From Escherichia phage UHP65, in sequence record PQ511047.1: DNA of 44,416 nucleotides; one strand, given 5' to 3'. The position numbers and the translations under genes are program-made. Below the pieces are notes generated by a model. It was given only the letters and a program-made list of their open reading frames with translations, did no database searches and had not been told where the DNA came from. Below are positions 278 through 757 of this stretch, one piece after another (within the stretch, counting starts at the first letter, position 1; each line of letters opens with the position of its first letter).

Positions 278-300
278 AGGGGCCATTACGGCCCCTTAAT
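278..300. terminator. bidirectional rho-independent-type hairpin between convergent genes
   Basis: aaaaaGGGGCCattaCGGCCCCttaattatt: GC stem flanked by A-run and T-rich run. Confidence 0.6.
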
Positions 301-516
301 TATTTGCTGCAAATCCAGCACCTGCGCCCTTAGCTTCGCCCCGCATTCCATATTTTTCACGTCAATCATCAAATCCTCGTCGGGGTCCGCGGACGGGCTA
401 TCGAACTTGCACGGCGGTCGCAGTGCCGACTCCGTTAGCGGCATCAACGGCGCGTTGCTTGATCCGCACGCGCTCAGCATCAAAACTACAATCAGGGCGG
501 TTAGGGCGCGTAACAT
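286..516 (-). CDS. o-spanin (Rz1-like outer-membrane lipoprotein), embedded in and extending past the i-spanin gene
   Basis: ATG at 516 with AGAGG RBS; signal peptide plus lipobox LSAC; Pro-rich mature part; different frame from overlapping 398..757. Confidence 0.7.
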   Translation of the reverse strand: MLRALTALIVVLMLSACGSSNAPLMPLTESALRPPCKFDSPSADPDEDLMIDVKNMECGAKLRAQVLDLQQIIKGP

Positions 517-757
517 ATTTAACAACCTCTTTCGTGATAGTCCGGTATTCTACGTCGCGGGCTTGTTCTGCCTGCACGGAGCGCTCAACAACTTTAGTTT
601 GCTGCCGTTGGGCTTTTGCTCGTGCCTGTTTCTCAGCCTCCGCCACTACGCCAGCGCGATAGGAGTCCCCTAGCCAGAATCCTACCGCCAGACCGATAAC
701 CAGTCCGATCGCTGCATATTTAATCACGCCATAACCCCCGGTTTTTAAGCTGTGCAA
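398..757 (-). CDS. i-spanin (Rz-like); start uncertain (TTG at 757, or GTG at 727 preceded by GGGGG)
   Basis: N-terminal TM helix YGVIKYAAIGLVIGLAVGFWLG then charged coiled-coil-like region; contains the lipoprotein ORF in another frame. Confidence 0.65.
   Translation of the reverse strand: MHSLKTGGYGVIKYAAIGLVIGLAVGFWLGDSYRAGVVAEAEKQARAKAQRQQTKVVERSVQAEQARDVEYRTITKEVVKYVTRPNRPDCSFDAERVRIKQRAVDAANGVGTATAVQVR

What the first reader, a model, noticed from the sequence alone, without database searches (positions are those of the whole stretch)
286..757. Embedded Rz/Rz1-type spanin pair located away from the holin-endolysin cassette
A TM-plus-coiled-coil ORF (398..757) contains, in another frame, a lipoprotein ORF (286..516; lipobox LSAC, Pro-rich) that extends beyond its end. 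The lipoprotein stop codon falls within the hairpin terminator at 278-300. The pair sits after the head morphogenesis gene, about 6 kb from the holin and endolysin genes at 6969-7979, so the lysis functions are split between two loci.
Basis: partly seen in the sequence, partly recalled or inferred. Interest (0 to 1): 0.45.

Follow-up and report, generated by a model that had tools for sequence, protein, structure and literature searches.

The report
Known overlapped spanin pair, Dhillonvirus phage
These are the two overlapping genes that an E. coli phage of the HK578/Dhillonvirus group most likely uses to break the host outer membrane at lysis; the pair, and its position among the head genes away from the holin and endolysin, are already catalogued, so the finding is correct but ordinary.

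Summary
On the minus strand an inner-membrane protein gene (398..727, GTG start; the TTG at 757 is not conserved) overlaps by 119 nt, in the +1 frame, a lipoprotein gene (286..516, lipobox LSAC). The lipoprotein's stop codon lies in the loop of a bidirectional terminator hairpin (277-297). The window is a complete Dhillonvirus (HK578-like) genome. Both proteins match PHROG "Rz-like spanin" families. Codon-position diversity in 18 relatives shows selection on both frames. Homologues sit directly downstream of endolysins of four different Pfam families in other phages. The holin-holin-endolysin unit is 6.2 kb away (6969..7979) and has no spanin of its own. The title's word "embedded" is wrong: the architecture is "overlapped". 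Neither protein matched any Pfam family significantly, so sequence-level kinship to lambda Rz/Rz1 is not shown. Kongari et al. 2018 already list HK578 and SSL-2009a in the "Jersey" overlapped spanin family, and several GenBank records annotate i-/o-spanin at this spot. One side result may be new: the o-spanin's C-terminal helix resembles the distal helix of longer i-spanins that carry a fully embedded o-spanin. This suggests a frame swap created the overlapped form (moderate evidence).

The parts
398..727 (-). i-spanin gene (109 aa). It has an N-terminal transmembrane helix, a long periplasmic helix, a Cys80 loop, a second helix and a variable tail.
   Evidence: ORF. The GTG start is conserved in all relatives. 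phrog_2536 'Rz-like spanin' at 1.2e-36. AF2 gives helices 2-72 and 84-102 with mean pLDDT 84.5. Codon-position diversity fits coding in this frame.
668..724 (-). Transmembrane segment of the i-spanin (residues about 2-20, IKYAAIGLVIGLAVGFWLG).
   Evidence: Mean hydropathy is 1.9 over the first 19-residue window. A hydrophobic N-terminus is kept in distant relatives.
735..739 (-). Shine-Dalgarno-like GGGGG, 7 nt upstream of the i-spanin GTG. The GTG overlaps the last codons of the head-morphogenesis gene (stop at 720..722), so translational coupling is likely.
   Evidence: Sequence read directly.
286..516 (-). o-spanin gene (76 aa precursor, 60 aa mature lipoprotein), in the +1 frame of the i-spanin.
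   Evidence: ORF. phrog_1267 at 4.7e-12 and phrog_5672 at 1.5e-25. Intact with lipobox in all complete loci, 84 unique sequences. Position-3 diversity is 0.236 vs 0.027 at position 2 downstream of the i-spanin stop.
466..477 (-). Lipobox L-S-A-C. Cys17 is the predicted lipidation site, followed by Gly-Ser (no Asp at +2), as expected for outer-membrane sorting.
   Evidence: Sequence. The lipobox is conserved across the family.
398..516 (-). 119-nt dual-coding overlap (i-spanin residues 71-109 plus its stop codon, and o-spanin residues 1-40).
   Evidence: Diversity is reduced and changes non-synonymous in both frames are depleted.
526..531 (-). AAGAGG Shine-Dalgarno for the o-spanin. It lies inside the i-spanin's most conserved motif T-K-E-V-V-K-Y, and the o-spanin ATG (514..516) spans the Tyr/Val codons.
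   Evidence: Sequence. The same arrangement is seen in overlapped and embedded relatives.
295..384 (-). C-terminal helix of the o-spanin (residues 45-74, containing conserved Cys58). It is encoded wholly downstream of the i-spanin stop.
   Evidence: AF2 helix 45-74, pLDDT 85-93. It is conserved in the family. As a profile it resembles the distal helix of embedded-type i-spanins (hhalign P = 7e-5).
277..297 (.). Bidirectional intrinsic-terminator hairpin that ends the terminase-portal-head-spanin transcription unit and the convergent plus-strand gene. The o-spanin stop TAA (286..288) is in its loop.
   Evidence: Terminator scan on both strands. RNA fold -21.4 kcal/mol, z = -3.2. A 'terminator' feature is annotated here in two relatives.
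6969..7979 (-). The separate holin (7689..7979), second holin (7447..7692) and endolysin (6969..7460) unit that supplies the first two lysis steps.
   Evidence: phrog_2359 and phrog_2508 holins; PF00959 and phrog_7 endolysin. The unit is bracketed by terminator-like hairpins at 8014-7985 and 6778-6757.

Best explanation
The two genes encode a two-component spanin of the 'overlapped' architecture, belonging to the Jersey/HK578 family.

Shown here:
- A 109-aa protein has an N-terminal membrane anchor and a mostly helical periplasmic part with one conserved Cys.
- A 76-aa lipoprotein precursor is read in the +1 frame from an ATG inside the first gene.
- That lipoprotein has a lipobox, a Pro-rich linker, two conserved Cys and a 30-residue C-terminal helix.
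- Both frames are under purifying selection.
- The pair is the last cistron pair of the late terminase-portal-head operon and ends at a terminator.

Inferred from what is established for lambda Rz/Rz1 and other spanins:
- The i-spanin sits in the inner membrane and the o-spanin is lipid-anchored in the outer membrane.
- Their periplasmic domains bind to form a disulfide-stabilised bridge across the periplasm.
- The bridge stays inert while the peptidoglycan mesh is intact.
- After the holins (7447..7979) release the endolysin (6969..7460) and the wall is degraded, the complexes fuse or disrupt the two membranes and complete lysis.

Because spanins are harmless until the wall is gone, they only need late expression. 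This explains why they can sit among the head genes, 6.2 kb from the holin-endolysin unit.
For: - PHROG spanin families match both proteins.
- A transmembrane anchor and a lipobox are present.
- AF2 predicts helices 2-72 and 84-102 in the i-spanin and 45-74 in the o-spanin.
- Cys80 (i-spanin) and Cys36/Cys58 (o-spanin) are conserved across the family.
- Both frames show codon-position signatures of coding, and doubly non-synonymous changes are depleted in the overlap.
- Homologous pairs lie immediately downstream of endolysins of four Pfam families (PF00959, PF00182, PF05838, PF08291), with holin-like small membrane ORFs upstream, in L042, L022, L112, L108, L118, L150 and L125.
- The same head-module position is annotated i-spanin/o-spanin in phages PaulFeyerabend, Shelanagig and K1G.
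- Kongari et al. 2018 (PMC6139136) list HK578, SSL-2009a, EP23, JL1 and SO-1 in the Jersey overlapped family. The window's i-spanin is 93.5% identical to that of SSL-2009a.
- No other spanin candidate exists in the window.
Against: - There is no experimental evidence for this family in anything I could read. Function rests on sequence features, family labels and gene context.
- Neither protein has a significant Pfam match, lambda Rz/Rz1 families included, and there is no solved relative.
- A crude heptad test did not show coiled-coil periodicity.
- The position among head genes is not the classical lysis-cassette position.
Confidence: 0.9

Rival explanations
1. The pair is a membrane 'moron' with another job, such as superinfection exclusion or envelope modification, and only looks like a spanin.
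For: It lies outside the lysis cassette, next to a convergent gene of unknown function (phrog_1965). Small lipoproteins in siphophages can be exclusion factors, and this window has one (Cor, 27499..27717).
Against: Homologues of both genes sit directly after endolysins of four families in other phages. Otherwise the window would have no spanin at all. The TM-protein plus +1-frame lipoprotein arrangement is specific to spanins, and PHROG labels it so.
Confidence: 0.04
2. Only the 109-aa gene is real. The lipoprotein ORF is a chance open frame or a dead remnant.
For: Many GenBank records do not annotate it or annotate a truncated form. Only 7 protein clusters exist for it, against 61 for the i-spanin.
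Against: The ORF, its ATG, its lipobox and both Cys are intact in all complete loci examined, 84 unique sequences with some down to about 35% identity. Downstream of the i-spanin stop, diversity at position 3 is 9-fold that at position 2 in its frame. A Shine-Dalgarno AAGAGG lies 9 nt upstream. The under-annotation is the known gene-caller bias against overlapping genes (PMC6139136).
Confidence: 0.02
3. The pair has a head-assembly or DNA-packaging accessory role, in keeping with its operon.
For: It is co-transcribed and probably translationally coupled with the head-morphogenesis gene. The same position is kept in Dhillonvirus, Jerseyvirus, Kagunavirus and L084.
Against: Both products carry export or membrane signals that are incompatible with cytoplasmic head assembly. 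Relatives occur in lysis cassettes with no head genes nearby.
Confidence: 0.02

Closest known systems
Jersey-family overlapped two-component spanins, shorter subfamily EP23 to SO-1 (HK578, SSL-2009a, JL1) (Kongari et al. 2018, PMC6139136)
   Same: This is the same family. The i-spanin is 93.5% identical to SSL-2009a's and the o-spanin is over 90% identical to many Dhillonvirus records. The architecture is overlapped with a +1 frame. The i-spanin has two helices with a short linker and a variable tail. The o-spanin has helical content and two constant Cys.
   Different: Nothing of substance differs; this is one more isolate. The paper proposes that the overlapped form arose by duplication and deletion from a separated form. 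My comparison suggests a frame swap from an embedded form instead.
Lambda Rz/Rz1 (prototype two-component spanin, embedded architecture)
   Same: Both have an inner-membrane type II protein plus an outer-membrane lipoprotein read in the +1 frame. Both have periplasmic Cys, a Pro-rich o-spanin segment and late expression. The presumed mechanism is the same.
   Different: There is no detectable sequence homology, with no significant Pfam match at all. The o-spanin is not embedded but extends 112 nt beyond the i-spanin. The i-spanin is shorter (109 vs 153 aa) and lacks a long distal helix. The o-spanin has a 30-residue helix, whereas Rz1 has no secondary structure. The pair is not adjacent to the holin and endolysin.
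P2 LysB/LysC (prototype of the overlapped architecture)
   Same: Overlapped gene arrangement with the o-spanin in the +1 frame, extending past the i-spanin stop.
   Different: It belongs to a different sequence family in the Kongari tables. P2's pair is part of the lysis cassette.
T4 PseT.3/PseT.2
   Same: The spanin genes are unlinked from the holin and endolysin genes, and the o-spanin has a predicted C-terminal helix and two conserved Cys (PMC6139136).
   Different: The T4 genes are separated rather than overlapping, and they belong to an unrelated sequence family.

Membership tests
Two-component spanin (functional class; Summer 2007 / Kongari 2018) | i-spanin: small protein with a single N-terminal TMD (N-in, C-out) | tested here: met
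   Hydropathy is 1.9 over residues 1-19 and a Lys lies before the TMD. AF2 predicts a helix from residue 2. A hydrophobic N-terminus is kept in 30 diverse relatives. Topology itself is inferred.
Two-component spanin (functional class; Summer 2007 / Kongari 2018) | Periplasmic domain of the i-spanin dominated by alpha-helix / coiled coil | tested here: inconclusive
   The helical part is met: AF2 helices 2-72 and 84-102, with pLDDT about 90. Coiled-coil heptad periodicity was not detected by a crude single-register test. No oligomer model could be run.
Two-component spanin (functional class; Summer 2007 / Kongari 2018) | o-spanin: lipoprotein signal with lipobox Cys and outer-membrane sorting residues | tested here: met
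   MLRALTALIVVLMLSAC|GS..., with lipobox LSAC and Gly at +2. The lipobox is conserved in 84 unique family members.
Two-component spanin (functional class; Summer 2007 / Kongari 2018) | The two genes are adjacent, with the o-spanin embedded in, overlapping or directly following the i-spanin | tested here: met
   119-nt overlap in the +1 frame, with the o-spanin ending 112 nt after the i-spanin. This is the 'overlapped' class.
Two-component spanin (functional class; Summer 2007 / Kongari 2018) | Periplasmic cysteine(s) for intermolecular disulfides | tested here: met
   Cys80 is invariant in the 30-sequence i-spanin alignment. Cys36 and Cys58 of the o-spanin are conserved. Disulfide formation was not tested.
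Two-component spanin (functional class; Summer 2007 / Kongari 2018) | Association with lysis genes | tested here: met
   Not in this window (6.2 kb away). In seven relatives the pair directly follows an endolysin.
Two-component spanin (functional class; Summer 2007 / Kongari 2018) | Required for outer-membrane disruption: lysis defect in Mg2+, or complementation of lambda Rz/Rz1 amber mutants | not testable with these tools
   This is an experimental criterion. No published test of this family was found in the papers I searched.
Jersey spanin family (Kongari 2018) | Significant sequence similarity of both subunits to Jersey-type spanins and to named members | tested here: met
   Against Jerseyvirus Shelanagig (L004): i-spanin E = 3e-12, o-spanin E = 5.5e-14. 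The i-spanin is 93.5% identical to that of SSL-2009a, a listed member.
Lambda Rz (PF03245) / Rz1 sequence families | Match to the Pfam models | tested here: not met
   Neither protein matched any Pfam family at a significant level; the only hits up to E = 1 are two weak DUF matches. The same holds for nine diverse relatives.
Lambda Rz (PF03245) / Rz1 sequence families | o-spanin wholly embedded in the i-spanin gene | tested here: not met
   The o-spanin extends 112 nt beyond the i-spanin stop.
Unimolecular spanin (T1 gp11 type) | One protein with both an N-terminal lipobox and a C-terminal TMD | tested here: not met
   The o-spanin has no C-terminal hydrophobic segment. No such ORF was found in the whole-window lipobox scan.

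The most novel reading that the evidence does not exclude
The overlapped architecture of this family may have arisen from a lambda-like embedded one by a frame swap. The o-spanin would then be a chimera: its N-terminal half descends from an embedded Rz1-like lipoprotein, and its C-terminal helix (window 295..384) is the distal helix ('CC2') that longer relatives still carry at the end of their i-spanin. This would move the subunit boundary of the periplasm-spanning complex.

Basis:
- Distant relatives (L025-27, L108, L111-112, L114-115, L118, L121-122, L125, L132) have i-spanins of about 150-165 aa ending in a helix of the form 'DAL.VV.NYE.C....L.GWQ.W'.
- These relatives also carry a fully embedded +1 lipoprotein that starts at the same K-Y-V/ATG site (at it or within 19 nt of it) and shares 'P.PPA.LM.PP'.
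- The overlapped o-spanin HMM matches those embedded ORFs only over positions 1-46.
- The o-spanin's C-terminal profile aligns with the CC2 profile at P = 7e-5, and 0 of 300 column shuffles reach that score.
- The best single pair scores 58 against 24 +/- 4.3 in shuffles, with 0 of 20,000 reaching it. That pair was chosen post hoc among about 400.
- The helix lies about 41-45 codons after the K-Y motif in both types, and the i-spanin stop of the overlapped type falls exactly at the junction.

Weak points:
- Single-HMM scores are not significant.
- The window's own o-spanin is linked only transitively.
- Convergence of amphipathic Cys-containing helices is not excluded.
- The direction of the change is not determined.

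Kongari 2018 states that no family mixes embedded with other architectures.
Probability: 0.5. Interest if true: 0.45.

Novelty: already known. Interest (0 to 1): 0.15.

Why it matters
For this window, little: it confirms that the phage has a complete three-step lysis system and shows where the third step is encoded. This is useful for correct annotation, because many Dhillonvirus records leave the o-spanin unannotated or start it at an internal Met without its lipobox. It is also useful for anyone engineering these phages or their lysis timing. The split location is a reminder that spanins need only late expression, not linkage to the holin and endolysin. The possible frame-swap origin of the overlapped form would interest specialists in two ways. 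It would be a concrete route by which overlapping genes exchange a domain, and it would hint at which helices contact each other in the spanin complex.

Tried and rejected
- Pfam scans of both proteins and of nine relatives found no spanin family and no significant hit.
- A profile search of solved structures found nothing below E = 0.35.
- An Rfam scan of the whole window found no family.
- The word-indexed protein search returned only close relatives. The exhaustive HMMER search gave 52 relatives, which I used to find the long i-spanin forms.
- The CC2 HMM against overlapped o-spanins, and the o-spanin HMM against frame-0 CC2, were in the right register but not significant (E about 0.4-3). 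The frame-swap idea therefore rests on profile-profile and shuffle tests only.
- A crude heptad periodicity test for a coiled coil was not significant.
- A separate sigma-70 promoter for the pair was considered; none was found between 727 and 2000 above the shuffle expectation.
- The TTG-757 start was considered and rejected because it is not conserved (L018 has a stop there).
- The 55-aa ORF after the endolysin (6785..6952) and the Cor lipoprotein (27499..27717) were considered as alternative spanins and rejected.
- The Shelanagig genome announcement says nothing on lysis genes.

Full report
**What the window is.** The first 3.4 kb match 157 phage records at 80-99% identity. Nearly all are Escherichia/Shigella siphophages of the genus Dhillonvirus (HK578-like). 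Joining the window's last 476 bases to its first 271 gives one intact 248-aa ORF. The window is therefore a complete, circularly permuted genome opened inside a gene.

**Checking the observation.**
- On the minus strand there is an ORF at 398..757 (TTG start) and, in its +1 frame, an ORF at 286..516 (ATG).
- The start used by the family is GTG at 727. It has GGGGG 7 nt upstream, overlaps the stop of the head-morphogenesis gene (720..1823), and is present in every relative. In L018 a stop codon removes the TTG-757 equivalent.
- The 109-aa product starts with a 19-residue hydrophobic segment of mean hydropathy 1.9.
- The 76-aa product reads MLRALTALIVVLMLSAC|GSS..., with lipobox LSAC, Gly at +2, 7 Pro and two further Cys in the mature 60 residues. 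AAGAGG lies 9 nt before its ATG.
- The genes share 119 nt, and the lipoprotein gene runs 112 nt past the other's stop.
- A terminator-like hairpin is found on both strands at 277..297. As minus-strand RNA it folds at -21.4 kcal/mol, z = -3.2. The TAA stop is in its loop, and the last three codons form one arm of the stem.
- The holins (7689..7979 and 7447..7692) and the endolysin (6969..7460, PF00959) are 6.2 kb upstream on the same strand. They are bracketed by their own terminator-like hairpins.

The word 'embedded' in the title is wrong, because this is the 'overlapped' class.

**Are both frames real genes?** I compared 18 distinct Dhillonvirus sequences of the 442-nt unit; none has an indel.
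- In the part that only the i-spanin uses, diversity is 0.223 at codon position 3 and 0.045 at position 2.
- In the part that only the o-spanin uses, the figures are 0.236 and 0.027 in the o-spanin frame.
- The shared part is less diverse (0.073, against 0.115 and 0.119).
- Changes that alter both proteins are depleted there: 7 of 30 observed against 130 of 276 possible.
This gives 149 ORFs and 84 unique sequences, all keeping the ATG, the lipobox and both Cys, with some down to about 35% identity.

**What the pair is.**
- PHROGs places the larger protein in phrog_2536 'Rz-like spanin' (1e-36). It places the lipoprotein in phrog_1267 (5e-12) and phrog_5672 (1.5e-25).
- Pfam has no significant match for either protein or for nine relatives, so the lambda Rz/Rz1 families are not matched.
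- No solved structure is related.
- AlphaFold2 with 30 diverse homologues predicts one long helix (residues 2-72: TMD plus periplasmic helix), a loop carrying the invariant Cys80, a second helix (84-102) and a disordered tail. Mean pLDDT is 84.5.
- For the o-spanin, AlphaFold2 predicts the signal helix, a disordered Pro-rich linker and a confident helix at 45-74.
- A crude heptad test did not show coiled-coil periodicity. 'Helical' is therefore supported and 'coiled coil' is not shown.

**Context in relatives.**
- The same position, between the head-morphogenesis gene and the scaffold gene, holds genes annotated i-spanin/o-spanin or Rz-like spanin in Dhillonvirus PaulFeyerabend, Jerseyvirus Shelanagig and Kagunavirus K1G, and in YD-2008.s.
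- More distant relatives (30-45% identity) sit in classical lysis cassettes, directly after an endolysin. In L042, L118 and L150 this is a PF00959 lysozyme. In L022 and L112 it is GH19, in L108 GH108, and in L125 peptidase M15. Small membrane ORFs lie upstream.
- This mosaic linkage to four unrelated endolysin types is the strongest contextual argument for a lysis role.
- The window has no other spanin candidate. The only other convincing lipoprotein (27499..27717) is Cor (phrog_1119). The 55-aa ORF after the endolysin has no membrane signal.

**Mechanism (inferred from the lambda Rz/Rz1 and T4 PseT work summarised in PMC6139136).** The i-spanin is anchored in the inner membrane and the lipidated o-spanin in the outer membrane. 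Their periplasmic parts form a disulfide-linked bridge that is held in check by the peptidoglycan mesh. After the holin and endolysin act, the bridge disrupts the outer membrane. Because the complex is harmless until the wall is degraded, it needs only late expression. Being the last two cistrons of the terminase-portal-head operon provides that.

**Comparison with what is known.** Kongari et al. 2018 list HK578, SSL-2009a, EP23, JL1 and SO-1 in the 'Jersey' family of overlapped two-component spanins, for both subunits. They describe a shorter subfamily (EP23 to SO-1), helical o-spanins and two constant o-spanin Cys. The window's i-spanin is 93.5% identical to that of SSL-2009a. Unlinked spanin genes are also known from T4. 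The finding is therefore correct and already known. I found no experimental test of this particular family.

**A side result that may be new.**
- Longer relatives of the i-spanin (about 150-165 aa from the likely start; L025-27, L108, L111-112, L114-115, L118, L121-122, L125, L132, P0100, P0101, P0118) end in a conserved helix of the form 'DAL.VV.NYE.C....L.GWQ.W'.
- Where DNA is available, they carry a fully embedded +1 lipoprotein that starts at, or within 19 nt of, the same K-Y-V/ATG site. It shares 'P.PPA.LM.PP' with the overlapped o-spanins but stops soon after.
- The overlapped o-spanin HMM matches those embedded ORFs only over its first 46 positions.
- The o-spanin's C-terminal part aligns, profile to profile, with the long i-spanins' distal helix: hhalign P = 7.3e-5 and score 21.0. 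Column shuffles give 8.8 +/- 2.2 with a maximum of 18.1, and 0 of 300 reach the observed score.
- The best pair (L021 o-spanin against L115 i-spanin) scores 58 against 24 +/- 4.3, with 0 of 20,000 shuffles reaching it. That pair was picked post hoc.
- The helix lies at about the same distance from the K-Y motif in both types. In the overlapped type the i-spanin stop falls at the junction.
- This pattern is what a 1- or 2-nt indel would produce if it swapped the reading frames downstream of 'PPCK'. The distal helix would then move from the i-spanin to the o-spanin.
- Caveats: single-HMM scores are not significant, the window's own o-spanin is linked only through its homologues, convergence is not excluded, and the direction of change is unknown.
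- Kongari et al. state that no family mixes embedded with other architectures and propose a different route.

**Verdict.** The pair is a real, correctly recognised spanin pair of a catalogued family, so interest is low. The frame-swap idea is the only element that goes beyond the literature I could read, and it needs the tests listed under next steps.

Noticed in passing
window 43941..44416 joined to 1..271 (+): The window's two ends join into one intact 248-aa ORF (phrog_1965, unknown function) that converges on the spanin terminator. The window is therefore a whole, circularly permuted genome opened inside a gene.
   Followed up: yes
window 27499..27717 (+): A second lipoprotein gene (lipobox LSGC) lies next to the tail-fibre gene 25989..27419. 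It matches the Cor superinfection-exclusion family (phrog_1119, 1e-28) and is not a spanin.
   Followed up: yes
L001 (NC_027383.1) 6282..6440; phrog_5672: RefSeq annotates the o-spanin of YD-2008.s from the internal Met25 (159 nt), which loses the signal and lipobox. phrog_5672 has only 47 positions and matches residues 32-76, so it appears to be built from such truncated calls. Several close relatives label the ORF 'hypothetical protein'. Only 7 protein clusters exist for the o-spanin, against 61 for the i-spanin.
   Followed up: partly
window 514..537 (-): The most conserved i-spanin motif (T-K-E-V-V-K-Y) coincides with the Shine-Dalgarno sequence and ATG of the o-spanin. Part of its conservation may therefore be a translation-signal constraint. 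The motif is also kept in relatives with embedded o-spanins, whose ATG lies at or within 19 nt of the same site.
   Followed up: partly
window 6757..8014 (-): The two holin genes, the endolysin and a 55-aa ORF (6785..6952, phrog_11068, unknown; no TMD or lipobox) form a unit bracketed by terminator-like hairpins (8014-7985 and 6778-6757). The role of the 55-aa ORF in the lysis unit is unknown.
   Followed up: partly
window 8032..8331 and 8316..8456 (-): Two small ORFs with hydrophobic N-terminal segments lie just upstream of the lysis unit's upstream terminator. One is phrog_2531 (unknown) and the other has no family. They were not examined further.
   Followed up: no
L150 1377..1920 and L024 2875..3412: Two further overlapped pairs, outside the Jersey/Dhillon group, have an o-spanin that ends in a helix resembling the distal helix of the long i-spanins (L150: ...VARAYHACRERQRALAEWVKR). 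The i-spanin frame continues there as low-complexity sequence. These may be independent frame swaps.
   Followed up: partly
P0086 (138 aa): A called protein starts like an i-spanin and continues with o-spanin-frame sequence (...DLMQEPCKGK...). It is either a sequencing frameshift or a natural fusion, and I could not fetch its DNA.
   Followed up: no
L084 2663..4490: In a phage only about 40% identical in the i-spanin, the pair again follows a Mu-F-like head-morphogenesis gene (PF04233). The head-module position is therefore older than the Dhillonvirus and Guernseyvirinae genera.
   Followed up: partly
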